A stretch of DNA of 64,000 nt from a virus (taxonomy: Duplodnaviria > Heunggongvirae > Uroviricota > Caudoviricetes), in IMG/VR virus record IMGVR_UViG_3300029705_000019; one strand, 5' to 3'. Below are positions 9,485 through 34,549 of this stretch, in pieces. A program made the translations under genes and the position numbers. The first letter of the stretch is position 1, and every line of letters begins with the position of its first letter. Under the pieces are notes generated by a model, which saw nothing but the letters and a program-made list of their open reading frames with translations, did not search any database and had not been told where the DNA came from.

Positions 9485-9485
9485 A

Positions 9486-17850: not shown

Positions 17851-17886
17851 AATATTATATATTGAAACTGTTATTTAATCAACTAT
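17851..17886 (-). promoter_or_regulatory. sigma70-type promoter (-35 TTGATT, N18, -10 TATAAT)
   Basis: Plus-strand CTAATATTATATATTG ... TTAATCAACT. Confidence 0.5.
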
Positions 17887-18715
17887 CTTTTCGTTGAATG
17901 TGCTGTTCTATGTAATTGCGGTCCTGTGAGAAAATAGGACATTCTTTATCTAGAATCCATTCCTTCTTATATCCGATAAGTCTATCAACGCAAGGAACTT
18001 CTTTTCTATAACAACAGATGCCACGCTTGAACTCAGTGGGCATATCGTTGAAGTTGATTCCCTGCTCTAAGAATAGCATATCTTGAATGTCATTGCTGGA
18101 CTTGTGCTCAAGAAGTTTGTGACTGAAATAAGTCTGACCGAGCATCTGAATAGCATTACGCGTTGCATCCTGTTGACGCCAAATAAAGCAATTACAAACT
18201 TCCTCCTCAGGAATTACAAACACTCTTGAATCAAATAATGCACCTTTTTCTATTGCATTCTTATAAACTGAAATCAATTTTTCATCTGTAGAATTACAAT
18301 TAGCTGTTTCTGGATCAACTGATACGCAGTCAATAAATTCTGCAACAGCGTCACTGAAAAATCTGTTAAATGCAAATGTTGCCATACTTGCAGAAACACT
18401 ACACATCTTTTGAAGATTATAATCAAACCAACCACTAGTGTCAATTTTATCATAATCAGTGATAAGCAAACTTATTTCATCAGACTGAGTATAACCAAAT
18501 TTACATCCTTGAATGTTTTTACAAAGATACTGAAGTGTTTCGTTCATTGCCACATGAAACACTTCATCATATGGTCGCTTAAAATGTTTTGTGAATGAAT
18601 GAAATGCTTTCCCATCAATTCGAATCATAACTGGAGTTCGTCTTGTGAGATACGTCTTACTTCTGTTCTCATAGAACTCTTTCATACGGTCACCAAGTGA
18701 ATCTTTGGTTGCCAA
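17879..18715 (-). CDS. Thg1-like protein (tRNA-His guanylyltransferase family, 3'-5' nucleotidyltransferase)
   Basis: N-terminal DRMKEFY...MIRIDGKAFHSFTKHF matches the Thg1/TLP signature (R[IV]DGxxFHxFT). Confidence 0.65.
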   Translation of the reverse strand: MATKDSLGDRMKEFYENRSKTYLTRRTPVMIRIDGKAFHSFTKHFKRPYDEVFHVAMNETLQYLCKNIQGCKFGYTQSDEISLLITDYDKIDTSGWFDYNLQKMCSVSASMATFAFNRFFSDAVAEFIDCVSVDPETANCNSTDEKLISVYKNAIEKGALFDSRVFVIPEEEVCNCFIWRQQDATRNAIQMLGQTYFSHKLLEHKSSNDIQDMLFLEQGINFNDMPTEFKRGICCYRKEVPCVDRLIGYKKEWILDKECPIFSQDRNYIEQHIQRKDS

Positions 18716-18959
18716 ATCTCTTACCCCACTTTCTCATTCTTTTAAGTTTTCTTTTGCGCGCGCCGTAAATGCATAGCAACACAATTGTGTAAATTAGCAG
18801 TGCAACTAACCCAAGTCCAAAGCTAATCCACAAAGGAGATGTTACCCACCACCACGACCAATCAATCACGTTTGTAAGTTTAAGAATCAGAAACACAATA
18901 AATACCACTGTGGACAAACTGATTCCTCTGCTTACTCGAACTGTCTTGTTGTCGTTCAT
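18690..18959 (-). CDS. small membrane protein
   Basis: Two hydrophobic helices (VVFIVFLILKL..., LWISFGLGLVALLIYTIVLLCIY) and a basic C-terminus. Confidence 0.5.
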   Translation of the reverse strand: MNDNKTVRVSRGISLSTVVFIVFLILKLTNVIDWSWWWVTSPLWISFGLGLVALLIYTIVLLCIYGARKRKLKRMRKWGKRFGNQRFTW

Positions 18960-18985
18960 GAAATTTCCTCCTTTACTTTTTACAC

Positions 18986-19020
18986 TTATATTATAATATG
19001 TACTAACAGTTATATCAACT
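18986..19020 (-). promoter_or_regulatory. consensus sigma70-type promoter (-35 TTGATA, N17, -10 TATAAT)
   Basis: Plus-strand CTTATATTATAATATG, then 17 nt, then TATCAACT. Confidence 0.55.
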
Positions 19021-19024
19021 AAAA

Positions 19025-19049
19025 AGCGGCTACCATAACAATAGCCGCT
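19025..19049. terminator. bidirectional terminator-like hairpin
   Basis: AGCGGCTA ... TAGCCGCT stem flanked by AAAAA and TTTATTTTTT. Confidence 0.5.
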
Positions 19050-19063
19050 TTATTTTTTACTTA

Positions 19064-19765
19064 TCAGGATAATTCTAATCCGCCACCGCCGCTAAAGACC
19101 TCACTGATTAGAGGATGTCTTCCGCAACTTCTCTTTTTAGTTTCAGTACAGAAGTGATAGTTAGGATGCTTTTCGCATTTAGGAACAAGGAACTGTTTAA
19201 GTTCAGGTGCAACCTTAAGAACTTCCTTTACCATCTGAATTGCCATCTGTCTGATTTCCCACTGTGCACAGGAACAAAGACGCTCATTGCAGAAGTTCAT
19301 AAATGTTCTTAGATTCATCTTAACACAGATTTCAGTGAAGCACGCATTGGGCAAAACCATTCTAGCATCTTCTCCGGGAATCAACAACTCCAGCAACTTC
19401 GCATAAGCTTCAGTAATAGTGTCCATTGTCTTCTGATAAATAACAGCAGCTTCAGGATTCTTTGCAATTGAAGGAGGAACAACAAATTCAAATCCTGTCT
19501 CCTTACAATACCTCTGTGAGCGTTGTGCATAACTTGCAAGACGGTGTCTAACCAACTGATGGGTTAGTGCTCTACTTACTCCGCTAATCTTAAAAGTAAA
19601 ATCAGCAAACTCAAGAACGGAATGATGACCGCTCTTATAACAATGATTCATGATCTTACCACCTGTAGGTGAACTATCATAACATGTGCTTGCTGCCTCT
19701 TCAATTGCGTCAACTGGTGCTGTTGTATAACGGATTAGTTCAACTTTCATTGTCAAGTTCTCCAT
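19064..19765 (-). CDS. thyX: flavin-dependent thymidylate synthase ThyX
   Basis: The ThyX signature RHRxxSxxxxSxRY is present as VRHRLASYAQRSQRY. Confidence 0.8.
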   Translation of the reverse strand: MENLTMKVELIRYTTAPVDAIEEAASTCYDSSPTGGKIMNHCYKSGHHSVLEFADFTFKISGVSRALTHQLVRHRLASYAQRSQRYCKETGFEFVVPPSIAKNPEAAVIYQKTMDTITEAYAKLLELLIPGEDARMVLPNACFTEICVKMNLRTFMNFCNERLCSCAQWEIRQMAIQMVKEVLKVAPELKQFLVPKCEKHPNYHFCTETKKRSCGRHPLISEVFSGGGGLELS

Positions 19766-20087
19766 TTATTGTTATGTAACAGGTCTTAATATATTCCGCA
19801 TTTTCACGCAGAAATTCAACAAGACCCTCATACAACATTGCATCATCAATGAACAATGTTGTTGGTCTCGAAAGTTTGTCACAGTCGATGTTAACAGGCG
19901 GGATAGAACAAACATGACCTGAAGTTGCATGATAATACTCCGCAAAATCTGAATATCTTTTACCATACAGATTTGAAGTCACATATAATCTTGTTGTACC
20001 ATCGTTGTTTTCACTTATTGCTTTGTTTACAAGCCACTTTGTTTTACCATACCCAGGAAGACAAACTTTATAGATCATCTTCATCAA
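19740..20087 (-). CDS. hypothetical protein with P-loop-like motif
   Basis: CLPGYGKTKW resembles a Walker A motif. 115 aa. Confidence 0.4.
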   Translation of the reverse strand: MMKMIYKVCLPGYGKTKWLVNKAISENNDGTTRLYVTSNLYGKRYSDFAEYYHATSGHVCSIPPVNIDCDKLSRPTTLFIDDAMLYEGLVEFLRENAEYIKTCYITINGELDNES

Positions 20088-20103
20088 ACATGTACCTCGC
20101 GAA

Positions 20104-20289
20104 TTATCTCTTCTTCTTTTTCATTCTCTTCATTGCCAAGTCATCTTTTGCTCGTCTCTTCTGAGAAGGGCTGAGATAGTATTCACGTCTGCGCAGCTCC
20201 TGAATCAGTCCGTCGTTGTTAACAGACTTCTTAAAGCGTCTGAGCATAGAATCAAATGACTCATTAGGCTTCGGAACAACCTTTGCCAT
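20104..20289 (-). CDS. rpsU: ribosomal protein bS21 homolog
   Basis: MAKVVPKPNESFDSMLRRFKKSV...LIQELRRREYYLSPSQKRRAK aligns with bacterial S21 (..V.ENE.FD.ALRRFKRS....G......RRREFYEKP...RKRAK). Confidence 0.7.
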   Translation of the reverse strand: MAKVVPKPNESFDSMLRRFKKSVNNDGLIQELRRREYYLSPSQKRRAKDDLAMKRMKKKKR

Positions 20290-20335
20290 TGTTTGAATTC
20301 ACCACCTTAATTTTAATAGTTATTTAATTTATTAA

Positions 20336-20530
20336 TCAGCCATTTATGGCTTCATAAACTTTTTCAACTGAAAGTGTTGTCACTTCAGTACTATGATTAT
20401 CAAGATATATCATAGAACCAACAAGATCATTCTTAAATGAATGTTCTTCAACTTTAATGATTCTATCAACCTTGATTAATAGTTTCTTTCCTGCTGCTAT
20501 TCCGTCAGGAATTAGTATGAATGTTTTCAT
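20336..20530 (-). CDS. hypothetical small protein
   Basis: 64-aa ORF. Confidence 0.4.
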   Translation of the reverse strand: MKTFILIPDGIAAGKKLLIKVDRIIKVEEHSFKNDLVGSMIYLDNHSTEVTTLSVEKVYEAING

Positions 20531-21962
20531 TTTTTACAACCTCATCAAGATTACCAAATTTATTTTCACAAAGAATAACATTGGCCATATAAACACCCAT
20601 AACAGATGCCATCATCAAACCTCTAGTCCATCCACTTGAGTCTCCGAGACAATGTAAATTATCAATACTTGTTCTGAGTTGATAATCCATTGTTACTTTG
20701 TTTGAGTAAAATTTAAGTTCAGGAGCATACAAAAGTGTTTCTTTGTTCGCAATACCGGGCGCCACTTTATCAAGCATAAAGATAAACTCAATGATATTTG
20801 TCATTGTTCTATACGGAATTGCAGCTGTAATATCCCCGGCAACAGCATCAGGTAACGTAGGTTTCAAATTTCCTCTATTCAGTTCCTTCTGCCAAGTTCT
20901 CTTTCCATCAAGAATGTCACCAAAACGCTGCACAAGGATATGACCATCTCCAAGTTTGTTTGTAAGCTGACCAACTTTCTTTGCATATGCAATCGGATCA
21001 TCGAATGGGACACTAAAATTATGTGAACAAAGAATTGAGAAGTTAGTATTCGGAGATTTTGTTTCCTTGAAGGAATGACCATTAACTACAGCAAGACCTT
21101 CATCATAGTTTTCCTGAGCAACCCACCCGCCAGGATTCTGACAAAATGTTCTAACTTTATTCTTAAACGGTTTTGGATATCCGATAAACTTGCCTTCATA
21201 CAGAGCTTCATTTACTTCCTGCATTATTTCATTACGACATTCAACTCGAACACCGATATCAACAGTACCAGGTTCATGCTGAATGTGATAATGATTGCAA
21301 ACATTGAATAACCACTCCGCTCCTCGACGACCTGTTGCAATGATTACCTTTTTTGCTGTGTATTTTGTACCATCATCTGTAATAACGCCAGAACAAACAT
21401 GTTTTTTATTCTTCTTATTAACAATTATATCTTTTACTGACTCATTGTAGTGAATATCAACACCACGTTCAGAAAGATAATCCTGAATTTTCTTATAGAT
21501 TTCTTGAGCTTTTTCTGTTCCTAAATGTCTTATGGGGCAGTCTACAAGCTTCAGATCGGCACGAATCGCACATTTCCGAATTCTCTCAACCGCATCATAA
21601 TCGCTAACACCCTCAATTTGAGTATCAGCTCCAAATTCGCGATAAATGGAATCAGTATACTCAATTAGATGCTGAACTGAATCTTCACCAATAAGTTCAG
21701 GAAGATCACCACCTACTTCATAACTAAGTGACAGTTTACCATCTGAAAATGCTCCAGCTCCCGAAAATCCAGTTGTAATATTACAGGGATCACAGTGTAC
21801 ACATTTACCTGTTTTATGTTTCGGGCAACTTCTATTTTCCACAGCTTTGCCCTTCTCACAAATGAGAATCTTGCCTTCATAATTGTTAGCAACAAGCTGC
21901 AGAGCAGTGAAAATTCCTGCCGGACCCGCACCAACAATTACAATGTCATAATCATATGTCAT
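20505..21962 (-). CDS. FAD-dependent oxidoreductase (NAD(FAD)-utilizing dehydrogenase family)
   Basis: N-terminal DIVIVGAGPAGIFTAL is a Rossmann dinucleotide-binding motif. 485 aa. Cys cluster CPKHKTGKCVHCDPC. Confidence 0.6.
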   Translation of the reverse strand: MTYDYDIVIVGAGPAGIFTALQLVANNYEGKILICEKGKAVENRSCPKHKTGKCVHCDPCNITTGFSGAGAFSDGKLSLSYEVGGDLPELIGEDSVQHLIEYTDSIYREFGADTQIEGVSDYDAVERIRKCAIRADLKLVDCPIRHLGTEKAQEIYKKIQDYLSERGVDIHYNESVKDIIVNKKNKKHVCSGVITDDGTKYTAKKVIIATGRRGAEWLFNVCNHYHIQHEPGTVDIGVRVECRNEIMQEVNEALYEGKFIGYPKPFKNKVRTFCQNPGGWVAQENYDEGLAVVNGHSFKETKSPNTNFSILCSHNFSVPFDDPIAYAKKVGQLTNKLGDGHILVQRFGDILDGKRTWQKELNRGNLKPTLPDAVAGDITAAIPYRTMTNIIEFIFMLDKVAPGIANKETLLYAPELKFYSNKVTMDYQLRTSIDNLHCLGDSSGWTRGLMMASVMGVYMANVILCENKFGNLDEVVKNENIHTNS

Positions 21963-22711
21963 GCGTTTGCCTCTTCATAAAAGTTAATCTTACCCAAATT
22001 GATCTGCTTTATAAGGTCTTCCTTATTAACAGATCCATTGACACCTGTGGCTTTGGACTGAACATTAACAGTAACTCTATTTACCTTTGTGATAACCCAC
22101 ACACTCTTATCTGTGTAGTGACCAAACAGTCTGGATCCACTTGCATCATCGGCATATTTTACTTGAGTACCAACAATGATATTGTTTCTGATTGCTTCAA
22201 TCTTTTTTGCTGCAATCATCTTTTTGATTTTACTAATCTCACACGTAATTTCACAGTCTTTCTCACGAATAATATCATATTCATTGAGAAGATTATTACA
22301 AGTCATTTCAGATTCAAGACGAGCTTCAACCGCCTCAATATCTGCAAAGATTGCGTGGAGAAGATGAACACGAGCAAACTGATATATGTCTTCCTTACCA
22401 TAAGTACCAATAGTGCCCACATTTACTTGAAGACCCTTCTTAACACTGTAAGTGAACCACATATCTGAACCAAAGTCAATTTTGTTTTCATCAGTATTGA
22501 AGAATCCAATTTCGAAAGAAATTTCCTTATCGAACTCATTATAATTAAGTCTAGTTAATCTTGCGTTCTCAAAGGGATTAACAAACATCTCAGTTACAAT
22601 AGTCTTGAAGCCCTCATGGATATTATGATAGATATTACTACCCATCTCGTTTATCATATCCAGCTCAGCCTTAAGTTCAATAATCTTGTTTTCCATGAAT
22701 TGATCCTCCAT
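21959..22711 (-). CDS. hypothetical protein
   Basis: 250-aa ORF downstream of promoter 22728-22764. Confidence 0.5.
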   Translation of the reverse strand: MEDQFMENKIIELKAELDMINEMGSNIYHNIHEGFKTIVTEMFVNPFENARLTRLNYNEFDKEISFEIGFFNTDENKIDFGSDMWFTYSVKKGLQVNVGTIGTYGKEDIYQFARVHLLHAIFADIEAVEARLESEMTCNNLLNEYDIIREKDCEITCEISKIKKMIAAKKIEAIRNNIIVGTQVKYADDASGSRLFGHYTDKSVWVITKVNRVTVNVQSKATGVNGSVNKEDLIKQINLGKINFYEEANA

Positions 22712-22727
22712 ACGTCTTTTATTTACA

Positions 22728-22764
22728 TATATATTATATATGATAACAGTTGAATGATCAACTT
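22728..22764 (-). promoter_or_regulatory. consensus sigma70-type promoter (-35 TTGATC, N17, -10 TATAAT)
   Basis: Plus-strand CATATATATTATATATG, then 17 nt, then GATCAACT. Confidence 0.55.
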
Positions 22765-23284
22765 AAAAATCAAGAATATCAGAATTTACATTAACATGAA
22801 CTTCAACATCATCGAGCAATTCCAGGTTGTCGCAAGTGTTACCGATAACCGTTACACTACTCACATCGTTCCACGGATCTTGCATCAAGAAACAAAAGTC
22901 TTCGTATCGAGTATAGTTTGTTTCATTGTAATAATCGTAACCATTAAACATTGCCGCCTCAAGATTAACAGCAGAAAAATGATTCATTTCCTGATTAAAC
23001 CAAACAATATATTTATAAATGCCACCGCAACGAGTTATTACTTCAACAATGTCACCGTGATAGATCAAACAGTCAAGAATGAGTTTATTGTTCTCATAAT
23101 GATATGCCTGAAAGCCTGTAGGCTTACAAATGGTTTCAGGCCAGATGCTAAGTTCATTTCCATCAAAATCAATGATGACAAATTCCAAATTTGGTTTAAT
23201 AACAATGTTGCCTTCAACCCATTCGTTATCATAAAAACTTTTTGCTTTGTAAGTGTATTGTTCAAATCCAAGATCGTGAGCCAT
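22763..23284 (-). CDS. hypothetical protein
   Basis: 173-aa ORF. Confidence 0.5.
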   Translation of the reverse strand: MAHDLGFEQYTYKAKSFYDNEWVEGNIVIKPNLEFVIIDFDGNELSIWPETICKPTGFQAYHYENNKLILDCLIYHGDIVEVITRCGGIYKYIVWFNQEMNHFSAVNLEAAMFNGYDYYNETNYTRYEDFCFLMQDPWNDVSSVTVIGNTCDNLELLDDVEVHVNVNSDILDF

Positions 23285-23286
23285 CT

Positions 23287-23993: not shown

Positions 23994-24006
23994 AAATTAA
24001 TCCTAC

Positions 24007-24889: not shown

Positions 24890-24906
24890 ATATCAGCACC
24901 TCAATG

Positions 24907-27438: not shown

Positions 27439-27465
27439 CTAATTACCTCCTGATTGTTTATAGTT

Positions 27466-27498: not shown

Positions 27499-27617
27499 AT
27501 AAATATAAACCTTGTGCAATGGATAAGACAAGCGTTATTTTTAGCAATAATTTTATATTAATAATACCTTATCGTTAATATTTGACCTTACTTTCTCCAC
27601 AGCTGTGGATAGATTAC

Positions 27618-28517
27618 TTAGTGTGCAATAAGGTCTGCCTCATGTAACTTATCAATCATCTCTTTTTCATCAGCTGCAAGACTTTGATAATATGTAGAAT
27701 TAAAGAAAGGCTGCATATGTGAAGAAATTAACCATGGCACATAGATACCAGTTGCTACATCGGGATCATAACATCCAATACTCAAATAAGCTCCAACATT
27801 GTCATGATTATAATAATGTGCATCAGGTAACTTATGACCTTTTTCATCACGTTTGAAAAATTTCGTCAGTGGTTTACCACAATCATGGATAAATGCTGCT
27901 TCAACAAGGATTGGTGAGTTGTAATTATTTATCAACCACTTTGCAGCACATTCACAATGCTTATCTACAGGCAAAGAATGATGAGGGTTATCATGAGGAA
28001 TATTCATTGACTCTATCAGTGAAGATCTATATTTAACACGATCAAAATCAACAGATTCATTATGTACAATTTTAATGCGAGGAAAACCTTCATTGTAGAA
28101 AGGCATTTCAAATCTATATAGCATTTTCTTGATTACTTCAGAACCAACATTTCTGGATCTTGTAGCATCACGTGTAATACAATCTTCATACGGACACCAT
28201 ACCACATGTGCTTCGATGGTTGCATTATGTTTTTTAGCAATATCAATTATCTGTTTTCTGTTTTTTCGATTCATGTTTGTTGCATCATATACAACATTTA
28301 TATTCTTTGTAAGTAGTTCATTAACTTCTCTATGTAGCTGATTAAACACATCAGATGGATTTCCCTGAATTCGTTCATCACCATAAAGTTTCTTTCTTAC
28401 TTGATCTGACGAACAAATTTTCCATTGTCTTACATCAGATGTTCTATTTACATATTTAATTGCATAGTCTGATTTACCACAACCAGGTAAACCAACAAGA
28501 ACTATTACTGTTGACAT
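27618..28517 (-). CDS. polynucleotide kinase (P-loop) fused to HD-domain phosphohydrolase; putative RNA/DNA end-healing enzyme
   Basis: N-terminal VLVGLPGCGKSDYA is a Walker A of the PNK type. The C-terminal half carries H...HD motifs (HHSLPV..., FIHDCGK). Confidence 0.55.
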   Translation of the reverse strand: MSTVIVLVGLPGCGKSDYAIKYVNRTSDVRQWKICSSDQVRKKLYGDERIQGNPSDVFNQLHREVNELLTKNINVVYDATNMNRKNRKQIIDIAKKHNATIEAHVVWCPYEDCITRDATRSRNVGSEVIKKMLYRFEMPFYNEGFPRIKIVHNESVDFDRVKYRSSLIESMNIPHDNPHHSLPVDKHCECAAKWLINNYNSPILVEAAFIHDCGKPLTKFFKRDEKGHKLPDAHYYNHDNVGAYLSIGCYDPDVATGIYVPWLISSHMQPFFNSTYYQSLAADEKEMIDKLHEADLIAH

Positions 28518-29311
28518 TTAAGTTCCTCCATTAAATGAAGTTTGATTATATCTTTACAAGTTGTGTCAAGAAGTTCAACCACTTCAAAGTCTGTTTTATT
28601 TAGTTCGAGTGTGCAATCAGCTTCTTTTAACATATCATCAATCTGTTTCATCAGATTATCATGCATTTTTCTTGCATTGTACACAGTGGTAAAATAACCT
28701 GTTTGTTTTAATTCACGAATATAAGTATTATTTTCTGGTACAAGACAAAATTCATACTTAGTATCAAACATGTATTCATGCAGCATGTCTCTAAATCTGA
28801 TTATATCAGCAAGCGCTTTGTTATCAAATCCGTATTTCTGAATCGCCTCTTTGTTCGAGGGCATTTCTTTGAATACCTTCTTTGACTTATTTTTTGCACA
28901 TCCTGCAATACACTGTATGTTAGCATACCTGTTAAGATGAGCAATCCTTTCACGATTTTCAATCAATTGATCAAATACAGATTTATACTTATCATTGATG
29001 ATATACCACTTAGTAAACAGTGTTTCAAGAAAATTAACATTCTGTTTCTTATAATTGTAAATCATATTTCGAATATCAAAAACGGTTAACTCACCGTTCT
29101 CTCGTTGATAACAGTTTGAAAATTCAGTTTTACCCATTGCCAGATTATCAAAAGAGGGTACAACGATAGCTTTGACATCTATATCGGAGGCCGACGTATC
29201 ACAACAATAATTCTGAGAACCAAAAAGAAACACACCAAGGACTTCCAGCCCCTGATTCTCAAGAAAATAGTAATCATTAAGGAGACGTGTATTAATAATT
29301 TCAGGCATCAT
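28505..29311 (-). CDS. Pol-beta-superfamily nucleotidyltransferase
   Basis: LFGSQNYCCDTSASDIDV matches the NTase signature G[SG]-x(9-13)-DxD. Confidence 0.55.
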   Translation of the reverse strand: MMPEIINTRLLNDYYFLENQGLEVLGVFLFGSQNYCCDTSASDIDVKAIVVPSFDNLAMGKTEFSNCYQRENGELTVFDIRNMIYNYKKQNVNFLETLFTKWYIINDKYKSVFDQLIENRERIAHLNRYANIQCIAGCAKNKSKKVFKEMPSNKEAIQKYGFDNKALADIIRFRDMLHEYMFDTKYEFCLVPENNTYIRELKQTGYFTTVYNARKMHDNLMKQIDDMLKEADCTLELNKTDFEVVELLDTTCKDIIKLHLMEELKCQQ

Positions 29312-29963
29312 ATGATTTGCCCTCCACGTTGAATTTTTCTTTTGTCCATATACAGTTAAAATATGGCTTTCCTGTTTCTATTGCATTTTGAATACTTAAA
29401 CTAGTTTCAATTGTCTTTCTTACTATAATGCCAGGTCTTAGTCCTTTTGACAGTATTTTTCTTTTTTCAACAATATCAAGAATAGCTTTTTCTATATTAA
29501 TATATTTGATTATTTTATCAGGATTTTCAACGCTTCGAGAAACAATGCCTTCAATCTCATGTTCATATATAGAGCCTTTTTTACGATTACACTCTTCACA
29601 CATTACTTGCATATTTTCAAGTGTATCTTTACCTCCCCATTTCTTCGGAAGTATATGATCTTTAGTCATTAAAGTACCGTCGTCAGCATAAAGATTAAAA
29701 TGTCTACGATTAGTTTTTGTAGGATCAGTGTGACTATCACAATCAAGCTTAAAATGAGTACCCTCTTTACCACAAGAGACACACTTTACACCCTTATTAT
29801 AAAATGTTTGATATCTCAAAGATCTTTGATAAACAGTGTATCCATCAACTTCAATGGATTTCTTTGAACCACTTCCAAGATTACGTGTTAAGTAATCTTC
29901 ACCAATGAGGGTAAATACTTCCTCTAAAGTATAATGTTTTTCCATATCATATCCACCCTTCAT
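29301..29963 (-). CDS. HNH endonuclease (free-standing)
   Basis: DHILPKKWGGKDTLENMQVMCEECNRKKG is an HNH motif. Upstream CVSCGKEG zinc knuckle. Confidence 0.6.
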   Translation of the reverse strand: MKGGYDMEKHYTLEEVFTLIGEDYLTRNLGSGSKKSIEVDGYTVYQRSLRYQTFYNKGVKCVSCGKEGTHFKLDCDSHTDPTKTNRRHFNLYADDGTLMTKDHILPKKWGGKDTLENMQVMCEECNRKKGSIYEHEIEGIVSRSVENPDKIIKYINIEKAILDIVEKRKILSKGLRPGIIVRKTIETSLSIQNAIETGKPYFNCIWTKEKFNVEGKSYDA

Positions 29964-30240
29964 TTACACGTTTACTAATGAATGATTTAAGTTCATCAAA
30001 ACATGTTTCATACTTTTCTTTACACATTTCAAGATATTCTTCATCTACATCTTTACTGTTTTTCCATGTGACATATGTGCAGTAATTTTTAATAGTTGTA
30101 CTTACAAGATTATGAACTTTTTCATAGTCTCTTGCAGCATGAATCCATCCTGTCATGTCATAAGGATTTGGTGAAGCCTGTGGAACTTTGTTCATTAGTT
30201 CCATAACGTTAAATATGAAGTTAAGTTCATTTTGTTTCAT
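29947..30240 (-). CDS. hypothetical protein
   Basis: 97-aa ORF. Confidence 0.45.
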   Translation of the reverse strand: MKQNELNFIFNVMELMNKVPQASPNPYDMTGWIHAARDYEKVHNLVSTTIKNYCTYVTWKNSKDVDEEYLEMCKEKYETCFDELKSFISKRVNEGWI

Positions 30241-30508
30241 AAGTTACCTCGGATTTAAGATGGCCCCACTTAATATATAGATATCTTTCAGAATCATGAA
30301 ATCTTGTGGAAACACTGTACCCAAGATCAATTAACATACATTTGATGTGATCAACTACTACTTCATACATATCTCCGATATATGCTTCAGCCCAAAAGCA
30401 TTTATTTTTAATAGCATTTGTAATAGCAATATCACAACGATTTTCTAGCTTCTCTTCCTGAGATTCAGTGTACAAAGTAAGTTTAGCTGCTTCTTTTGCT
30501 GTAATCAT
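30227..30508 (-). CDS. hypothetical protein
   Basis: 93-aa ORF. Confidence 0.45.
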   Translation of the reverse strand: MITAKEAAKLTLYTESQEEKLENRCDIAITNAIKNKCFWAEAYIGDMYEVVVDHIKCMLIDLGYSVSTRFHDSERYLYIKWGHLKSEVTYETK

Positions 30509-30511
30509 ATT

Positions 30512-30814
30512 TTACACCACCTTCTCAAAAAGACCGCCATCTTTAATTCCTGTAACATCAGATGTCATATACCAAGAGAATTTGCCATTGTCATAATAAT
30601 CAAGTAACATATTCTTAAAATTAACTAGCTCATTTATATCCTCAAACCAGCCAACACGATGACTAAGTTCATTGCTGATAGGTCCGATCCAATAAATAAC
30701 AACATAGTGTAAATCAGCTTTGATGGCTTTTTTACGGATTCCCTCTAAAATTGTTTTAGCTTCTTCACGAATACTATTCAACATATTAAAAATCCTCCAT
30801 TCCTTTTTACACAT
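30512..30814 (-). CDS. hypothetical protein
   Basis: 100-aa ORF downstream of promoter 30815-30848. Confidence 0.45.
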   Translation of the reverse strand: MCKKEWRIFNMLNSIREEAKTILEGIRKKAIKADLHYVVIYWIGPISNELSHRVGWFEDINELVNFKNMLLDYYDNGKFSWYMTSDVTGIKDGGLFEKVV

Positions 30815-30848
30815 ATATTATAATATAAGAATAGAAGATAATCAACTT
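30815..30848 (-). promoter_or_regulatory. consensus sigma70-type promoter (-35 TTGATT, N17, -10 TATAAT)
   Basis: Plus-strand CACATATATTATAATAT, then 17 nt, then AATCAACT. Confidence 0.55.
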
Positions 30849-30857
30849 AAATAACAG

Positions 30858-31403
30858 TTATAATTTTTTGAATGTAAAATCAGAAGCATCACAAGATCCA
30901 CACATATAATATTTATTTGGATAATTAAGATAAGAAGTCATTCTTCTGAATTCATGTACTTTTCCACATTTATTGCATATAAGATGATATTTAACAGGTC
31001 TTGAAGGAATATCCACACCGAAGTCTCTTCCATCAGTTGAAGTGGCTATTGTTATTTGAGGGAATCTTGTGTTAACACATTGTGCCCAATATTGAAATCT
31101 TTTGCCATGATTCCAACAATTTGTTTGAGTATGTATCATTTCATGTACAATACAACTTAACAATCGTTTGTGAAATAATTCTGCATCTGTTATTCGTTCG
31201 AACATTCTGCTAAGTTTTACAGCCCATCCAATATTACATCCATCAACAACTGGTTTGATTGTTGCCCAATAACTTGTTACATTAGCAAATTCAATTTTAA
31301 CAATTTCTGGCACTTTAAATTTTTTATATGTAACAAGCATGTCTGTTGCTTCATTGATGTATTCTCGAACTAAAGATTCAGTTAATTCCATTATTATCCT
31401 CAT
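30858..31403 (-). CDS. SprT-like zinc metallopeptidase domain protein with C-terminal zinc ribbon
   Basis: VHEMIHTQ...HGKRFQYWA resembles the SprT HExxH...HGxxF motif. C-terminal CNKCGK ... CGSC. Confidence 0.5.
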   Translation of the reverse strand: MRIIMELTESLVREYINEATDMLVTYKKFKVPEIVKIEFANVTSYWATIKPVVDGCNIGWAVKLSRMFERITDAELFHKRLLSCIVHEMIHTQTNCWNHGKRFQYWAQCVNTRFPQITIATSTDGRDFGVDIPSRPVKYHLICNKCGKVHEFRRMTSYLNYPNKYYMCGSCDASDFTFKKL

Positions 31404-31423
31404 GTTGGCATATTTATTTAACT

Positions 31424-31456
31424 ATATTATATGATATTCATTCAAATTTATCAACT
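31424..31456 (-). promoter_or_regulatory. consensus sigma70-type promoter (-35 TTGATA, N17, -10 TATAAT)
   Basis: Plus-strand CTATATTATATGAT, then 17 nt, then TATCAACT. Confidence 0.5.
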
Positions 31457-31461
31457 ACAAT

Positions 31462-31494
31462 AAAAAAGAGGCTTGTAAGAAGCCTCTTTTTTAT
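31462..31494. terminator. bidirectional terminator hairpin
   Basis: AAAAAAGAGGCTTGTAAGAAGCCTCTTTTTTATT: a GC stem flanked by A6 and T6. Confidence 0.55.
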
Positions 31495-31514
31495 TATATG
31501 TATTTACATGTAAC

Positions 31515-32462
31515 TTATTCAATGATGTTGCTTGGAAGCAGATAGTTACCATCACTCATTACAGTGGGTAGTACACCATTCCACTTTTCGTAGTACATCT
31601 GAGTTAGAATTTTATCAGTGATAGATTCTGCAAGTACCTTGTTTGCTTCAGCTTGCGCCTCTGCTGCAATGATGATGGCCTGAGCTTCAGCCTCTGCCTT
31701 TGCAATATTTGCTTCATTCTTATTCTGCTGAATTACAAGTTCCTGCTCAGATGCAAACTTAGCATCAAGTGCCTTCTGAATTTCAGGATTCTCAAACGAA
31801 ATACCTTCCTTCAAACCAAGAACAGTGATTGTGATACCATAATCCTTGAAGTAGTCAATAACATAATTCTTAACAGCTTCCATAATTTCACCCTTCTTAG
31901 CACCGAGATCAGTGGACATTACAAGGGCTGTTTCAATGTTAAATCTATCTTCAACCATCTTTTTGATGTCAGTATCAATGATGGTTTCAAGGGGAGTGTT
32001 ATTATAACGATAAAGGAACTTTGCTGCATCTTTTTCTTCAATCAATGCAGTGCAATTCATACCAACATAGATACCAATATTATCTGATGTTTCACCAAAA
32101 ATTGCCTTGTTTGAAGAAGTTGCTGTCGAGTCACCGCTTTCCCAGCTTCTCGAAACAGGCTTTCGTTCAACAACAATAAGTGTTGCTGTAGGTCTATATT
32201 CACCTTGCCAGTGCTTACGACCTGTCTGTACCCATCTATGAGGAATCTGAATTTCTTTAGTTGCAACCTTTGTTTCAAGCAGCAGCTCTTCTGAATCAAA
32301 TGCACCTTGACTGCCAGTGTCACCTACAAGGGGAACAAGGAATGCTGTCTGTGAGGCTTCAATGGTTTTGAACTCTGGCTTGTCATAGGGCTTACGGCAG
32401 CCTGTAAACAGTGCACAACACATAATCACGAGCATTACAAGGAAGATGATACACTTTTTCAT
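31515..32462 (-). CDS. SPFH (band-7/prohibitin) domain lipoprotein
   Basis: Signal peptide plus lipobox (LFTGC). The C-terminal Ala/Glu/Gln-rich coiled coil (AKAEAEAQAIIIAAEAQAEANK) is typical of band-7 proteins. Confidence 0.5.
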   Translation of the reverse strand: MKKCIIFLVMLVIMCCALFTGCRKPYDKPEFKTIEASQTAFLVPLVGDTGSQGAFDSEELLLETKVATKEIQIPHRWVQTGRKHWQGEYRPTATLIVVERKPVSRSWESGDSTATSSNKAIFGETSDNIGIYVGMNCTALIEEKDAAKFLYRYNNTPLETIIDTDIKKMVEDRFNIETALVMSTDLGAKKGEIMEAVKNYVIDYFKDYGITITVLGLKEGISFENPEIQKALDAKFASEQELVIQQNKNEANIAKAEAEAQAIIIAAEAQAEANKVLAESITDKILTQMYYEKWNGVLPTVMSDGNYLLPSNIIE

Positions 32463-32779
32463 TTGATATTGTCTCCATTCTTTTTAGTTGAAAAATATTT
32501 ATAAACATTATAACAAGCAGACCCAGCCACAAGTGCTATAATAAGTACAAAAATTGTAGCAACAAGTGGCTTCACAAAGTTATAAAGCTCATACATAAGA
32601 TATAGTTCATTACTGTTTTCTAACTGAGTCATAGCCAACTCGTTATTAATTATGGGCTCTAAATTTAGAACAACAACGTATGCAGCAACAGTAATAACAG
32701 CGAATACAGCTTTGAGAATCAAATTTCTTATAAGTTTTTGTTTACTCATTCGAGTTTTTAGTTTCCTTTCGTTCTTCAT
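32459..32779 (-). CDS. small two-TM membrane protein (possible SPFH partner)
   Basis: Two hydrophobic helices (AVFAVITVAAYVVVL; LVATIFVLIIALVAGSACY). Start/stop coupled to the SPFH gene. Confidence 0.45.
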   Translation of the reverse strand: MKNERKLKTRMSKQKLIRNLILKAVFAVITVAAYVVVLNLEPIINNELAMTQLENSNELYLMYELYNFVKPLVATIFVLIIALVAGSACYNVYKYFSTKKNGDNIK

Positions 32780-33071
32780 TAAGTTGCATTATCTTTTCAC
32801 AACATTTATAATCTGTTACAATTGTTAAGACTCGTTCACCATTGTCAGTATACACATTGAAATGACTGACTGTGTTAAGATCAATTGGCCAAAGATAATT
32901 GAAAGGATTAATACCATCGCCAATATAGTACTTATTACACATATTTTCTTCATCATATGCAACAACAAGTTCTTTACTATGAAGAACAGGATTATTATCT
33001 TGAAAATTTTTCAGTGTATCTCGTCTAATGAGACATATGATTGATTTATTGTTATTAAGTACCATGATCAC
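32742..33071 (-). CDS. hypothetical protein
   Basis: 109-aa ORF. Confidence 0.45.
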   Translation of the reverse strand: MIMVLNNNKSIICLIRRDTLKNFQDNNPVLHSKELVVAYDEENMCNKYYIGDGINPFNYLWPIDLNTVSHFNVYTDNGERVLTIVTDYKCCEKIMQLNEERKETKNSNE

Positions 33072-34549
33072 ATCTCACTCAAAATATCTTCAGAAATTTC
33101 TGCAGTGGTATCACTAGCAATCTTATCTTGAATAATACCTTCCAGCTGTTTGAATTCATAATTCTTGTGCTTGTAAGCACAGAATTTAGGCCTATTGATT
33201 ATTCTACAAACAACACCCTCACGTGTGTGAGTTTTACCAATGGGATCTGGTCCGCTATAATAATCTTCAGCAGCTGCAACAATCAGATCACCAATAATTT
33301 CATTTTCTTCAAGTTGATAGACAGTCCACTCATTCTTATCATGTGGCTTAAACCAGAACTCATTGTTGAAAACAATACCCTTACCAATAACAGGTACTGT
33401 TTTTACACCCATTTGTTCACATCTGTGTCTAACTTGATCAGGTGTATACTCAACAACATATCCATCGTCATTGGTCATAGTCATTCGATAAACATACATA
33501 TCGGATAACGGTTCCTCTGTGTGGATATCCACGTTGTTGGTTTCCTCATTGAATTGAAGAGAAGATCCTGAGATTGAACAACCATAAGTAAAAATAGTTG
33601 TAGGCCCATACTGTTTTACAAACTCGGGTCCAACTTTTGTGTTATCACCTGTTGACATAATCGGGGCACCAGTATCAGTAAATCCAACAACTTCGTAGTA
33701 AACAGTTTCACCTTTGTTTAATTTACCGATAAATTCATTATGATGTTTTTCACGGAATGCATTTGATCCATAGAAACTTGTATTACCATCAAAGTTTTCA
33801 AGAACAACTCTTCTAGTTCCACAAACATAATCATAATTGTAAATCGGTGTACCTTCTTTATGAAGCAACCAATCTTTAAATGTTCTCTTGTAACTTTTAT
33901 GTACAGGCAAATAGCCAGTTCGCTGAGAAGTTCCGTGCATCTTTAAAGTGATTTCAATTTCATCACCTTCTCTAAAGGCACCAGTATTGTAAGCAAGCTG
34001 CTCAGTGTCAACATGTTCGGCAAATAATGGAGCATAGTCAACTCTCTTTTTACGAGTTCTATTTCCATCAGAGTATGTTCCATAGCGTCGAGTTGTTTTT
34101 GGAACATACTTACAACAGATGTTATGACCATTTACTGTAACAATTTGTTCGCCAACAGAAAATTCGGTTACAACAACATCAGGATTATTCTGCAACTCTG
34201 AATAACAATAGTTAATGGATTCTAGAGGCATGAATACACCATCCGATTTTTCTCCACGCAGCTTTATTGCCTTGATGTTGCGATGGTCTGGATCAAGATA
34301 TCCGCCAATGTTTTTTCCATTCTCATCTTTCTTACGAACAAGATTATTTTGTTCACAATATTCTTCTGACAGCTGCAATCCTGAAGGGAAATAGATACCC
34401 ATGTCACCGATTTTTGTTTCTAGCGAGACAATGGTATCATTTCCAAAAAATGTTGCAACTTGAAGTCTGTCTGCATTTGTGTGAGGTCTAAGTTTTTCAA
34501 CCTTAACAATGTAACCACAATGCATGTTAGTCACCTCCGACAAGTTCAA
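33068..34549 (-). CDS. RNA ligase (Rnl2-like nucleotidyltransferase) with N-terminal extension
   Basis: EITLKMHGTSQR matches the Rnl2-type motif I (KxHGT) of ATP-dependent RNA ligases. 493 aa. Confidence 0.5.
   Translation of the reverse strand: MNLSEVTNMHCGYIVKVEKLRPHTNADRLQVATFFGNDTIVSLETKIGDMGIYFPSGLQLSEEYCEQNNLVRKKDENGKNIGGYLDPDHRNIKAIKLRGEKSDGVFMPLESINYCYSELQNNPDVVVTEFSVGEQIVTVNGHNICCKYVPKTTRRYGTYSDGNRTRKKRVDYAPLFAEHVDTEQLAYNTGAFREGDEIEITLKMHGTSQRTGYLPVHKSYKRTFKDWLLHKEGTPIYNYDYVCGTRRVVLENFDGNTSFYGSNAFREKHHNEFIGKLNKGETVYYEVVGFTDTGAPIMSTGDNTKVGPEFVKQYGPTTIFTYGCSISGSSLQFNEETNNVDIHTEEPLSDMYVYRMTMTNDDGYVVEYTPDQVRHRCEQMGVKTVPVIGKGIVFNNEFWFKPHDKNEWTVYQLEENEIIGDLIVAAAEDYYSGPDPIGKTHTREGVVCRIINRPKFCAYKHKNYEFKQLEGIIQDKIASDTTAEISEDILSEM

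What the first reader, a model, noticed from the sequence alone, without database searches (positions are those of the whole stretch)
17879..34549. Dispersed tRNA/RNA end-repair toolkit: Thg1-like enzyme, PNK-HD fusion, Pol-beta nucleotidyltransferase, Rnl2-like ligase and metallophosphoesterase, next to a large tRNA cluster
The window encodes five end-repair activities. A Thg1-like 3'-5' nucleotidyltransferase (17879-18715, RIDGKAFHSFT) can repair tRNA 5' ends. A P-loop polynucleotide kinase fused to an HD phosphohydrolase (27618-28517) can heal 5'-OH and 3'-phosphate ends. An immediately adjacent, overlapping Pol-beta NTase (28505-29311) could rebuild 3' ends in the manner of a CCA-adding enzyme. 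An Rnl2-type RNA ligase (33068-34549, KMHGT) can seal breaks. A calcineurin-like phosphoesterase (37493-38260) is also present. Together with >=13 phage tRNA genes, this looks like an expanded T4 Pnk/Rnl-style counter-defence against host anticodon nucleases (PrrC, RloC or colicin-like toxins). It adds 5'-end (Thg1) and 3'-end (NTase) repair functions that are not part of the classical T4 pathway. The kinase-HD/NTase pair is split, like a divided CCA-adding/Pnkp-type enzyme.
Basis: partly seen in the sequence, partly recalled or inferred. Interest (0 to 1): 0.7.

Follow-up and report, generated by a model that had tools for sequence, protein, structure and literature searches.

The report
Phage tRNA repair gene kit
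A 410-kb uncultured phage carries, next to its tRNA genes, a conserved set of enzymes able to heal, rebuild and re-join broken RNA ends. Kits like this are already described in large phages, but here some of the phage's own tRNA genes are interrupted by small tRNA-like inserts that such enzymes might help remove.

Summary
Three labels need correcting.

- **Ligase:** it is DraRnl/NgrRnl-like (Rnl5: N-terminal tRNA-binding-type OB fold plus C-terminal adenylyltransferase), not Rnl2.
- **NTase:** it is a divergent RlaP-like Pol-beta enzyme, related to T4 NrdC.11. It is not CCA-adding-like, and the "split CCA enzyme" idea is unsupported.
- **tRNA count:** the window holds 9-11 tRNAs, not 13 or more.

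A sixth component was missed: a "Swiss-army-knife" HAD phosphatase at 11453-11923.

The genes are a conserved neighbourhood rather than a chance scatter. Within 10 kb of 80 viral Pnk-HD homologues, the NTase occurs in 32 loci (usually abutting), the Thg1-like protein in 25, the ligase in 20-23 and the phosphoesterase in 11. Unrelated window neighbours occur in 1-4.

This kind of kit (tRNAs, ligase, PNK, HD/HAD/calcineurin phosphatases, RlaP, sporadic Thg1) is already described for jumbo phages (PMC7824862), so it is a new member of a known kind.

One unexpected lead emerged. tRNA-Leu(UAA) in the window, and tRNA-Lys(UUU) just outside it, carry anticodon-loop inserts shaped like acceptor stem + NCCA. 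Such inserts are frequent near Pnk-HD genes (57 of 385 tRNAs) and rare in control arrays (2 of 383). The kit may therefore also splice these tRNAs.

The parts
223..10201 (-). tRNA array. ARAGORN calls Pro(UGG), Ser(UGA), Ser(GCU), Ile(UAU) x2, Leu(CAA), Gln(UUG) and Leu(UAG). Rfam alone adds tRNA-like genes at 4722-4788 and 2457-2536. The array continues about 2.7 kb beyond window position 1.
2016..2153 (-). tRNA-Leu(UAA) gene interrupted in the anticodon loop by a 51-nt insert. The insert has an acceptor-like closing stem (7 bp scored, GUUAGAG/CUCUAGC), a T-arm-like hairpin, a discriminator A and CCA.
   Evidence: ARAGORN intron mode gives perfect 7-bp acceptor, 5-bp anticodon and 5-bp T stems once the insert is removed. 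Rfam sees only a marginal tRNA at 2019-2106.
11453..11923 (-). HAD 'Swiss-army-knife' RNA-repair phosphatase.
   Evidence: Pfam HAD_SAK_2 PF18143, E 1.8e-23, 83.9 bits against a cut-off of 27.5; translation
17879..18715 (-). Bacterial-type Thg1-like protein (TLP), a templated 3'-5' RNA polymerase that repairs tRNA 5' ends. The start codon is TTG.
   Evidence: Pfam Thg1 3e-30; BtTLP 4kgk 1.4e-64. It has RIDGKAFH and QSDEIS, and WRQQDATRN where eukaryotic Thg1 has WRQVDCHINNLYN. It lies within 10 kb of Pnk-HD homologues in 25 of 80 viral loci.
27618..28517 (-). Bifunctional end-healing enzyme: an N-terminal polynucleotide 5'-kinase and a C-terminal HD phosphoesterase.
   Evidence: K15, D38, R41 and T80 align with K21, D38, R41 and T80 of CthPnk, the first three of which are essential. 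The HD motif residues are invariant in 34 homologues.
28505..29311 (-). Short RlaP-like Pol-beta nucleotidyltransferase. Its gene overlaps the Pnk-HD start by 13 nt.
   Evidence: It sits directly upstream of, or beside, Pnk-HD in most of the 32 of 80 loci that carry it.
33068..34525 (-). ATP-dependent RNA ligase with Rnl5 (DraRnl/NgrRnl) architecture: an N-terminal Trbp111/EMAPII-like OB fold and a C-terminal adenylyltransferase carrying large insertions. The motif I lysine is K195 (K203 of the longer ORF).
   Evidence: the DraRnl motifs are described in PMC1807946
37493..38260 (-). Lambda-phosphatase/ApaH-like dinuclear metallophosphoesterase. It is a possible 2',3'-cyclic or 3'-phosphate healing enzyme, but its link to the module is weak.
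   Evidence: present in 11 of 80 loci

Best explanation
The window carries a phage-encoded RNA end-healing and sealing kit aimed at tRNA.

**Proposed pathway**
1. [quoted passage not shown]
2. The 3' end is converted to 3'-OH by the HD domain of Pnk-HD. The stand-alone HAD 'Swiss-army-knife' phosphatase, and perhaps the lambda-phosphatase-like metallophosphoesterase, may back it up.
3. The 5'-OH is phosphorylated by the kinase domain.
4. If nucleotides were lost, the RlaP-like NTase adds one or two nucleotides to the 3'-OH. The Thg1-like protein refills 5'-truncated acceptor ends by templated 3'-5' synthesis.
5. The Rnl5-type ligase, holding the tRNA with its Trbp111-like OB fold, seals 3'-OH to 5'-PO4 through a lysyl-AMP intermediate at K195.

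**Shown here:** family identities, intact catalytic residues, and recurrent gene linkage with each other and with tRNA arrays in many phages.

**Inferred:** the substrates, the order of steps, and the biological trigger (counter-defence as opposed to maturation of the phage's own tRNAs).
For: - **Domain and catalytic-residue evidence:**
- **Kinase:** K15, D38, R41 and T80 align with CthPnk; K21, D38 and R41 are the residues essential there.
- **Ligase:** TLKMHG matches the T-x-K-x-H-G of DraRnl, and EGVV matches motif IV.
- **NTase:** hhalign gives 91-93% probability to a canonical RlaP and to T4 NrdC.11. 15 of 38 homologues hit Pfam RlaP.
- **RlaP biochemistry:** purified RlaPs add 1-2 NMP to RNA 3'-OH ends and restored aminoacylation of a repaired tRNA (PMC12776372).
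- **Linkage:** in 80 IMG/VR loci centred on Pnk-HD homologues, the NTase occurs in 32, the TLP in 25, the ligase in 20-23 and the phosphoesterase in 11. All are on the same strand. The window's unrelated neighbours occur far less often (ThyX 4, HNH 2, FAD oxidoreductase 1). After clustering Pnk-HD at 70% identity, 30 of 50 clusters keep at least one partner.
- **Compact versions of the module:** L022 has ligase, TLP, NTase and Pnk-HD within 5.3 kb. L007 has MPE, ligase, HNH, NTase and Pnk-HD within 8.7 kb. Bacillus phage Kirov has NTase, protease, ligase and Pnk-HD.
- **tRNA arrays nearby:** arrays of 7-11 genes lie a few kb upstream of the ligase in L023, L034 and L036.
- **Published framework:** the same interpretation is given for jumbo phages in PMC7824862.
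Against: - No activity, substrate or host nuclease is known for this phage.
- Characterised Rnl5 ligases seal nicks in duplexes, not anticodon loops. Both DraRnl and Deinococcus HD-Pnk have been tied to radiation and DNA-damage resistance (my recollection of the HD-Pnk work).
- In the window the genes are spread over 27 kb among replication and nucleotide-metabolism genes.
- The query NTase does not itself reach Pfam RlaP. Its C-terminal half matches only other phage 'nucleotidyltransferases'.
- The phosphoesterase's closest relatives are protein phosphatases and Ap4A hydrolases.
- The co-occurrence counts are not phylogenetically independent.
Confidence: 0.6

Rival explanations
1. The kit serves tRNA maturation or splicing rather than damage repair. 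It processes the phage's own tRNA genes that are interrupted in the anticodon loop by tRNA-like inserts (acceptor stem + NCCA). RNase P and RNase Z-type cuts would release the insert. The ligase would then reseal the loop, and Pnk-HD, RlaP and TLP would tidy imprecise ends.
For: - Interrupted tRNA-Leu(UAA) lies in the window at 2016-2153, and interrupted tRNA-Lys(UUU) lies 856 nt beyond window position 1. Removing exactly 77 nt from the latter restores a canonical CUUUUAA loop.
- 57 of 385 tRNAs near Pnk-HD homologues carry short inserts, against 2 of 383 in 51 control phage tRNA arrays.
- 18 of 42 unique inserts have a perfect 7-bp closing stem plus a discriminator base plus CCA. Shuffled controls average 0.36.
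- Lak megaphages, which have published 'enigmatic' tRNA introns (PMC6784885), also match the ligase (11 Prevotella phage records) and the TLP (15 Prevotella phage records, including named Lak phages).
- Within the sequenced array, these are the only Leu(UAA) and Lys(UUU) copies, and AAA is the fourth most used codon.
Against: - Bacillus phage PBC2 has the ligase and Pnk-HD, but none of its 19 tRNAs is interrupted, and they lie 65 kb away.
- The association is at lineage level and is not phylogenetically corrected.
- No cleavage activity for the 3' boundary of the insert is known.
- ARAGORN intron calls were not checked against RNA data.
- Ends left by RNase P and RNase Z would not need the kinase or the phosphatase.
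Confidence: 0.2
2. The kit repairs nucleic-acid breaks at the phage replication fork, as proposed for Deinococcus DraRnl and HD-Pnk. Pnk-HD would heal DNA or RNA-DNA ends, and the Rnl5 ligase would seal nicks whose 3'-OH strand is RNA.
For: - DraRnl-type ligases seal duplex nicks with RNA on the 3'-OH side, and deleting rnl sensitises D. radiodurans to radiation (PMC5397189, PMC1807946).
- Runella HD-Pnk is described as a DNA/RNA end-healing enzyme.
- The window is rich in replication and repair genes: RecJ, NAD-dependent DNA ligase, SbcCD, clamp loader and RecA.
Against: - The linked TLP is a tRNA-specific enzyme family.
- In vitro, RNA was the only cellular macromolecule that RlaP modified.
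- The ligase's OB fold resembles tRNA-binding domains.
- The module recurs next to tRNA arrays.
- A HAD_SAK RNA-repair phosphatase is also present.
Confidence: 0.1
3. The genes do not form one pathway. They are independent accessory functions that happen to share an early-gene region. Examples: the metallophosphoesterase acting as a NinI-like protein phosphatase or Ap4A hydrolase, the NTase as a signalling or anti-defence enzyme, and the TLP only adding G-1 to a phage tRNA-His.
For: - The metallophosphoesterase's best relatives are lambda phosphatase, ApaH and PrpE.
- The NTase's best solved folds are kanamycin nucleotidyltransferase and the Hailong HalB signal synthase, both with weak similarity (TM 0.4-0.5).
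- The genes are interspersed with unrelated ORFs.
Against: - Same-strand co-occurrence of NTase, ligase and TLP with Pnk-HD recurs across many divergent phages. The NTase and Pnk-HD genes overlap, and compact four-gene clusters exist.
Confidence: 0.1

Closest known systems
Jumbo-phage RNA repair systems (Iyer, Anantharaman, Krishnan, Burroughs & Aravind 2021, PMC7824862; Burroughs & Aravind 2016)
   Same: The inventory is the same: phage tRNA arrays, ATP-dependent RNA ligases, polynucleotide kinase, HAD 'Swiss-army-knife', calcineurin-like and HD phosphatases, RlaP NTases and sporadic Thg1.
   Different: This is an uncultured 410-kb phage with no close DNA relative among deposited phages. Neither the specific kinase-N/HD-C fusion nor the link to interrupted tRNA genes appears in the passages I could read. 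The 2016 paper could not be opened here.
T4 Pnkp + Rnl1 repair of PrrC-cleaved tRNA-Lys
   Same: The logic is the same: heal the 5'-OH and the 2',3'>P, then seal the anticodon loop. T4 also encodes an RlaP (NrdC.11), placed next to an HNH homing endonuclease gene as it is here.
   Different: The protein families differ. T4 uses a kinase-HAD Pnkp and an Rnl1 ligase. This phage uses kinase-HD, an Rnl5-type ligase, and additionally a TLP.
Runella slithyformis / Deinococcus radiodurans HD-Pnk with adjacent ligase
   Same: It is a bifunctional HD 2',3'-phosphoesterase plus 5'-OH polynucleotide kinase, encoded beside an ATP-dependent ligase. Deinococcus pairs it with DraRnl, the Rnl5 prototype.
   Different: The domain order is reversed (kinase first, HD second). 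The context is a phage with tRNAs, an RlaP-like NTase and a TLP. No biochemistry exists for this arrangement.
Rnl5 ligases DraRnl / NgrRnl
   Same: Both have an N-terminal OB fold and a C-terminal adenylyltransferase with no C-terminal domain. Both have the T-x-K-x-H-G motif I, the EGVV motif IV and a K-x-K motif V. The best fold and NCBIfam matches are to this family.
   Different: This ligase is 485 aa against about 340 aa, with large insertions in the NTase domain that AlphaFold modelled poorly. It scores below the NCBIfam equivalog cut-off (44 against 151 bits).
Lak megaphage tRNA introns (Devoto et al. 2019, PMC6784885)
   Same: Both show short inserts in phage tRNA anticodon loops, one of which may itself encode a tRNA. 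Among deposited phage records, 11 Prevotella phage records match the ligase and 15 match the TLP, named Lak phages among the latter.
   Different: That paper calls the introns enigmatic and proposes no removal machinery. Here they are shown to form a class (acceptor stem + NCCA) and to co-occur with the repair kit in other phage lineages.

Membership tests
Thg1 superfamily, bacterial TLP branch | Thg1 catalytic domain scoring above the curated cut-off | tested here: met
   PF04446 scores 105.3 bits against a cut-off of 29.2. BtTLP 4kgk matches at E 1.4e-64 over both halves.
Thg1 superfamily, bacterial TLP branch | Metal-binding carboxylates (RxDG...; SDE) are present, and the eukaryotic HINNLYN anticodon-recognition motif is absent | tested here: met
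   RIDGKAFH and QSDEIS are aligned and conserved. The sequence has WRQQDATRN, like BtTLP's WRQQDASKN, where Candida Thg1 has WRQVDCHINNLYN. The roles assigned to these residues come from my knowledge of the Thg1 literature.
Thg1 superfamily, bacterial TLP branch | Templated 3'-5' nucleotide addition to 5'-truncated tRNA | not testable with these tools
   This needs an enzyme assay.
Polynucleotide 5'-kinase (CthPnk/T4 Pnk type) | P-loop lysine, general-base Asp and acceptor-binding Arg (K21, D38 and R41 in CthPnk) | tested here: met
   K15, D38 and R41 (with S37 and T80) align to CthPnk and are invariant in 34 homologues. Their essential status is documented in PMC3902929. The best NCBIfam match is bacter_Pnkp, 2.9e-19, covering the kinase part only.
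HD phosphohydrolase | H...HD...H...H...D metal-binding motif and a match to an HD profile | tested here: inconclusive
   The motif is fully present and invariant: H187, H211-D212, H234, H238, H267 and D295. However, the query reaches only HDIG 22.7 bits against a cut-off of 27.6, and it has no Pfam HD hit. Pfam HD is recorded on a subset of homologues.
Runella-type HD-Pnk | N-terminal HD domain followed by a C-terminal kinase | tested here: not met
   The order here is kinase (4-139) then HD (about 175-299). The domains are the same, but the architecture is reversed.
RlaP (PF10127) | Match to the family profile | tested here: inconclusive
   The query has no PF10127 hit at E<0.01, whereas 15 of 38 homologues hit it (best 7e-8). 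hhalign against a canonical RlaP gives 91% probability (E 9e-7), and against T4 NrdC.11 it gives 93% (E 4e-7). Both alignments cover only the N-terminal ~105 residues. The family HMM finds the same ORFs that NrdC.11 finds.
RlaP (PF10127) | Gene placed next to RNA ligase or RNA repair genes | tested here: met
   It abuts or overlaps Pnk-HD in most of the 32 of 80 loci that carry it, and the ligase lies nearby in many.
CCA-adding enzyme (class II, PolyA_pol head + body) | Match to the PolyA_pol/CCA profiles or fold | tested here: not met
   No such family appears in the Pfam, NCBIfam or PHROG scans. No CCA-adding enzyme appears among the listed top 50 fold matches.
Rnl2 (T4 gp24.1 type) | N-terminal adenylyltransferase followed by an Rnl2-specific C-terminal helical domain | tested here: not met
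   The adenylyltransferase is C-terminal (residues ~190-460) and is preceded by an OB fold. There is no C-terminal domain. Only the shared Pfam family PF09414 matches, and weakly (5.9e-5, below the cut-off).
Rnl5 (DraRnl/NgrRnl) | N-terminal OB fold plus C-terminal adenylyltransferase, with motif I T-x-K-x-H-G, motif IV EGVV and motif V | tested here: met
   TIGR02306 RNA_lig_DRB0094 is the only NCBIfam hit (9.6e-12, below the equivalog cut-off). The top 13 Foldseek hits are all NgrRnl (E about 1e-11), although the model is poor (pLDDT 63) outside the OB fold. The motifs are invariant in 34 homologues and match those in PMC1807946.
Rnl5 (DraRnl/NgrRnl) | Sealing of 3'-OH(RNA)/5'-PO4 nicks through lysyl-AMP | not testable with these tools
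   This needs an enzyme assay.
Dinuclear metallophosphoesterase (lambda-Pase/ApaH/Pnkp phosphatase clade) | Motifs DxH, GDxxDRG, GNHE and GHxH, and a match to the Metallophos profile | tested here: met
   PF00149 scores 52.5 bits against a cut-off of 21.5. The motifs are read from the translation. Lambda phosphatase 1g5b matches at 3e-4, and the phosphatase segment of bacter_Pnkp at 1.2e-5.
HAD 'Swiss-army-knife' RNA repair phosphatase | Match to the HAD_SAK_2 profile and the DxDG motif I | tested here: met
   PF18143 scores 83.9 bits against a cut-off of 27.5. The protein begins MKVIFLDIDGVLN.

The most novel reading that the evidence does not exclude
The kit, or at least its Rnl5-type ligase, may be the missing machinery that removes a class of tRNA-like introns (7-bp acceptor-like stem, often a T-arm, a discriminator base and CCA) nested in the anticodon loops of phage tRNAs. 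Host RNase P and a cut after CCA would excise the inner element. The phage enzymes would then heal and reseal the outer tRNA. This would amount to a protein-dependent tRNA splicing pathway in bacterial viruses, and it would explain the 'enigmatic' introns first seen in Lak megaphages.
Probability: 0.2. Interest if true: 0.8.

Novelty: new member of a known kind. Interest (0 to 1): 0.4.

Why it matters
- **The kit as found is ordinary for large phages.** It adds a well-resolved example, with corrected family assignments, and quantifies a conserved core neighbourhood of Pnk-HD, RlaP-like NTase, Rnl5-type ligase and TLP. It also shows that a Thg1-like protein is genomically tied to RNA end-healing genes, which bears on the unsettled biological role of bacterial-type TLPs.
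- **The more valuable lead is the co-occurrence with tRNA genes split by tRNA-like, CCA-ended inserts.** If the kit processes them, an open question from 2019 (how phage tRNA introns are removed, and why they exist) becomes directly testable with a handful of recombinant proteins and in-vitro transcripts.

Tried and rejected
- **Near-identity DNA search against deposited phages:** no match.
- **PDB sequence searches with the ligase (single sequence and profile) and with the NTase:** nothing useful.
- **AlphaFold model of the ligase:** poor outside the OB fold (pLDDT 63). Its fold matches are therefore used only as support, alongside the NCBIfam hit and the motifs.
- **NTase fold search against PDB:** only weak, generic matches to two-domain Pol-beta enzymes such as kanamycin NTase and Hailong HalB (TM 0.4-0.5). 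I do not read this as an aminoglycoside-resistance or signalling assignment. No solved structure labelled RlaP turned up in the PDB searches.
- **'Split CCA-adding enzyme' idea:** rejected, because no CCA or PolyA_pol family matched.
- **Burroughs & Aravind 2016:** could not be opened, so I could not check whether it already describes the kinase-HD fusion or the TLP linkage.
- **Odd tRNA-like gene at 4722-4788:** a search for relatives in viral contigs found nothing.
- **Pattern search for interrupted tRNA-Lys genes:** 50 of 52 hits were merely tandem tRNAs, one was a truncated match that could not be scored, and one independent true case remained (L091).
- **Bacillus phage PBC2, used as a counter-check:** it has the ligase and Pnk-HD but no interrupted tRNAs. 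This lowered my probability for the splicing reading.
- **Other ORFs between the kit genes:** scans found no further RNA-repair domains.

Full report
**Source and setting.** The window is part of a 410,186-bp contig from JGI metagenome 3300031555. It has 34% G+C, and 101 of 103 non-overlapping ORFs lie on the minus strand. It has no close DNA relative among 50,697 deposited phage records. Around the finding lie typical large-phage early genes: ThyX, ribosomal protein S21, an FAD oxidoreductase, RecJ, an NAD-dependent DNA ligase, NrdD, SbcCD, clamp-loader subunits and RecA.

**Observation.** All five ORFs are present where stated.

*Thg1-like protein (17879-18715).* It passes Pfam Thg1 well above the cut-off. 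It is most similar to the Bacillus thuringiensis Thg1-like protein (4kgk, E 1.4e-64), with a roughly 37-residue insertion. It keeps RIDGKAFH and QSDEIS. It has WRQQDATRN where the Candida Thg1 has WRQVDCHINNLYN. It is therefore a bacterial-type TLP, the branch shown to repair 5'-truncated tRNAs by templated 3'-5' addition (PMC3061083, PMC4820378). The TTG start fits the homologue's N-terminus, and a related locus also uses TTG.

*Kinase-HD fusion (27618-28517).* The kinase is of the polynucleotide-kinase type.
- Its best solved relative is the Clostridium thermocellum Pnkp kinase domain.
- Its best NCBIfam model is bacterial Pnkp.
- K15, D38 and R41 align with the essential K21, D38 and R41 of CthPnk.
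- These residues are invariant in 34 homologues.

The C-terminal half carries an invariant H...HD...H...H...D pattern and a sub-threshold HDIG match. Pfam HD is recorded on some homologues. The characterised HD-Pnk of Runella has the opposite domain order.

*NTase (28505-29311).* It overlaps the kinase gene by 13 nt and has G31-S32...D43-x-D45. It misses Pfam RlaP itself. However, 15 of 38 homologues hit that family. Its family profile aligns to a canonical RlaP and to T4 NrdC.11 with 91-93% probability over the catalytic N-terminal half. An HMM built from its family finds the same ORFs that NrdC.11 finds. A confident model (pLDDT 94.9) matches phage 'nucleotidyltransferases' well: Bacillus phage BCD7 has a TM-score of 0.80. 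It matches solved structures only weakly. No CCA-adding family matched anywhere. Purified RlaPs add one or two nucleotides to RNA 3'-OH ends, and T4 NrdC.11 is a member of the family (PMC12776372).

*Ligase.* It most likely starts at 34525 and is 485 aa long. Its architecture is Rnl5, not Rnl2.
- An N-terminal OB fold that resembles Trbp111, EMAPII and PheRS-B2 tRNA-binding domains precedes the adenylyltransferase.
- The only NCBIfam match is the DraRnl model.
- The 13 best fold matches are all Naegleria NgrRnl. The model is poor outside the OB fold.
- TLKMHG reproduces the T163-x-K165-x-H167-G168 of DraRnl, and EGVV reproduces motif IV.

*Metallophosphoesterase (37493-38260).* It has all the PPP-type motifs. 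Its nearest relatives are lambda phosphatase, ApaH and PrpE. It also gives a weaker match to the phosphatase segment of bacterial Pnkp.

*tRNA count.* The tRNA count in the window is 9-11, not 13 or more.

**A missed component.** The ORF at 11453-11923 is a HAD 'Swiss-army-knife' RNA-repair phosphatase (PF18143, E 1.8e-23). Just outside the window the contig also encodes a cRec-domain protein. PMC7824862 links that family to cyclic-phosphate processing beside RNA ligases.

**Is it a system?** I fetched 80 viral loci around Pnk-HD homologues and searched 10 kb on each side.

| Gene | Loci with the gene (of 80) |
|---|---|
| RlaP-like NTase | 29-32 |
| TLP | 25 |
| Ligase | 20-23 |
| Metallophosphoesterase | 11 |
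| ThyX (unrelated window neighbour) | 4 |
| HNH (unrelated window neighbour) | 2 |
| FAD oxidoreductase (unrelated window neighbour) | 1 |

- All the partner genes lie on the same strand as Pnk-HD.
- After clustering at 70% identity, 30 of 50 clusters keep at least one partner.
- The NTase usually abuts or overlaps Pnk-HD.
- Compact forms exist. L022 has ligase, TLP, NTase and Pnk-HD within 5.3 kb. L007 has the phosphoesterase, ligase, HNH, NTase and Pnk-HD within 8.7 kb.
- Cultured Bacillus phages have ligase and Pnk-HD side by side, with an NTase nearby.
- tRNA arrays lie just upstream of the ligase in several loci.

The core (Pnk-HD, NTase, ligase, TLP) is therefore a conserved neighbourhood. 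The link to the metallophosphoesterase is weak.

**Mechanism.** The best-supported reading is heal-and-seal repair of tRNA, in five steps:
1. The HD domain, with HAD-SAK and perhaps the metallophosphoesterase, clears 2',3'-cyclic or 3'-phosphates.
2. The kinase phosphorylates the 5'-OH.
3. The RlaP-like NTase restores lost 3' nucleotides.
4. The TLP restores lost 5' nucleotides of acceptor stems.
5. The Rnl5-type ligase seals the break.

The identities, the catalytic residues and the linkage are shown. The substrates and the trigger are inferred.

**Comparison with what is known.** This is the framework already published for jumbo phages. It lists the same parts, including HD-like and calcineurin-like phosphatases, RlaP and sporadic Thg1 (PMC7824862). 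TLP genes are annotated in 163 deposited phage records. I therefore rate the finding a new member of a known kind.

**Unexpected lead.** ARAGORN's intron mode calls a tRNA-Leu(UAA) at window 2016-2153 with a 51-nt insert in the anticodon loop.

Just 856 nt beyond window position 1, a tRNA-Lys(UUU) carries a 77-nt insert between C32 and U33. Rfam scores the outer tRNA at 52.6 bits with an 83-nt 'loop'. Removing exactly 77 nt yields a 76-nt tRNA with a CUUUUAA loop. The insert itself folds as a cloverleaf ending in ACCA. An unrelated 72-kb viral contig has a tRNA-Lys(UUU) interrupted at the same place.

The pattern extends beyond this phage.
- In the loci fetched around Pnk-HD homologues, 57 of 385 tRNAs carry such inserts (42 unique inserts of 20-150 nt).
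- In 51 control phage tRNA-array loci, only 2 of 383 do.
- 18 of the 42 unique inserts consist of a perfect 7-bp closing helix, a discriminator base and CCA exactly at the 3' boundary. The helix sequence differs from insert to insert. Shuffled inserts give 0.36 on average, with a maximum of 3.

Lak megaphages were reported to have 'enigmatic' tRNA introns, one of which possibly encodes a tRNA (PMC6784885). Prevotella phage records also match the ligase (11 records) and the TLP (15 records, including named Lak phages).

A tRNA top-half with NCCA is the classical minimal RNase P substrate (my knowledge). A plausible route is therefore excision by host end-processing enzymes followed by resealing by the phage ligase.

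Against this reading, Bacillus phage PBC2 has ligase and Pnk-HD but 19 uninterrupted tRNAs 65 kb away. In addition, the association is not phylogenetically corrected. I give this reading about 20%.

**Verdict.** The kit is an already-described kind of phage RNA-repair system. Its possible role in processing nested tRNA-like introns is the part worth following up.

Noticed in passing
window 2016-2153 (-): tRNA-Leu(UAA) is interrupted in the anticodon loop by a 51-nt insert. The insert has an acceptor-like closing stem (7 bp scored), a T-arm-like hairpin, a discriminator A and CCA. Standard tRNA callers miss the gene.
   Followed up: partly
L088 11744-11896 (same contig, 856 nt beyond window position 1, same strand as the genes): tRNA-Lys(UUU) carries a 77-nt cloverleaf-like insert between C32 and U33. 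ARAGORN calls the insert itself a tRNA-Ile(AAU), and it ends in ACCA. Precise removal restores a canonical anticodon loop. An independent case with an unrelated 69-nt insert lies at about 5621-5765 of L091.
   Followed up: partly
loci L004-L086 compared with control loci L090-L141: Short anticodon-loop inserts occur in 57 of 385 tRNAs near Pnk-HD homologues but in only 2 of 383 tRNAs in control phage tRNA arrays. 18 of 42 unique inserts are a perfect 7-bp stem plus discriminator plus CCA.
   Followed up: partly
L088 12975-13591 (about 2.1-2.7 kb beyond window position 1): A ROOL RNA (RF03087, 144.6 bits, E 6e-31) sits directly after the tRNA array.
   Followed up: no
L088 14827-15171: A 114-aa cREC_REC (PF20274) protein is encoded here. 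The jumbo-phage literature links this family to cyclic-phosphate processing beside RNA ligases. It lies outside the window.
   Followed up: no
window 29301-29963 and 11904-12275 (-): HNH endonuclease genes sit immediately upstream of, and overlap, the RlaP-like NTase and the HAD-SAK phosphatase respectively. T4 has the same arrangement, with mobD directly upstream of nrdC.11.
   Followed up: no
window 31515-32462 (-): An SPFH/Band_7 protein lies near the ligase. It is much more conserved than its neighbours (72-77% identity in L004 and L016) and recurs within 10 kb of Pnk-HD in 9 of 80 loci.
   Followed up: partly
window 4722-4788, 2457-2536 and 5603-5695 (-): Three odd tRNA-like genes are present. 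The first (anticodon GUU) has only a 4-bp acceptor stem, set inside a longer pairing. The second has an extended anticodon arm. The third is a tRNA-Ile(UAU) with a 17-nt variable-arm insertion.
   Followed up: partly
window 20104-20289 (-): The phage encodes a ribosomal protein S21 (PHROG 21469, 2.8e-15; Pfam Ribosomal_S21 is recorded for the JGI gene call).
   Followed up: no
window 12256-13176, 13181-13546 and 13650-14189 (-): Between the HAD-SAK phosphatase and the TLP lie a radical-SAM protein, a YodL-like protein and a dNMP kinase.
   Followed up: no
window 30858-31403 (-): A 181-aa ORF between the ligase and the NTase gives a weak, sub-threshold SprT-like metalloprotease match (E 1.9e-4).
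   Followed up: no
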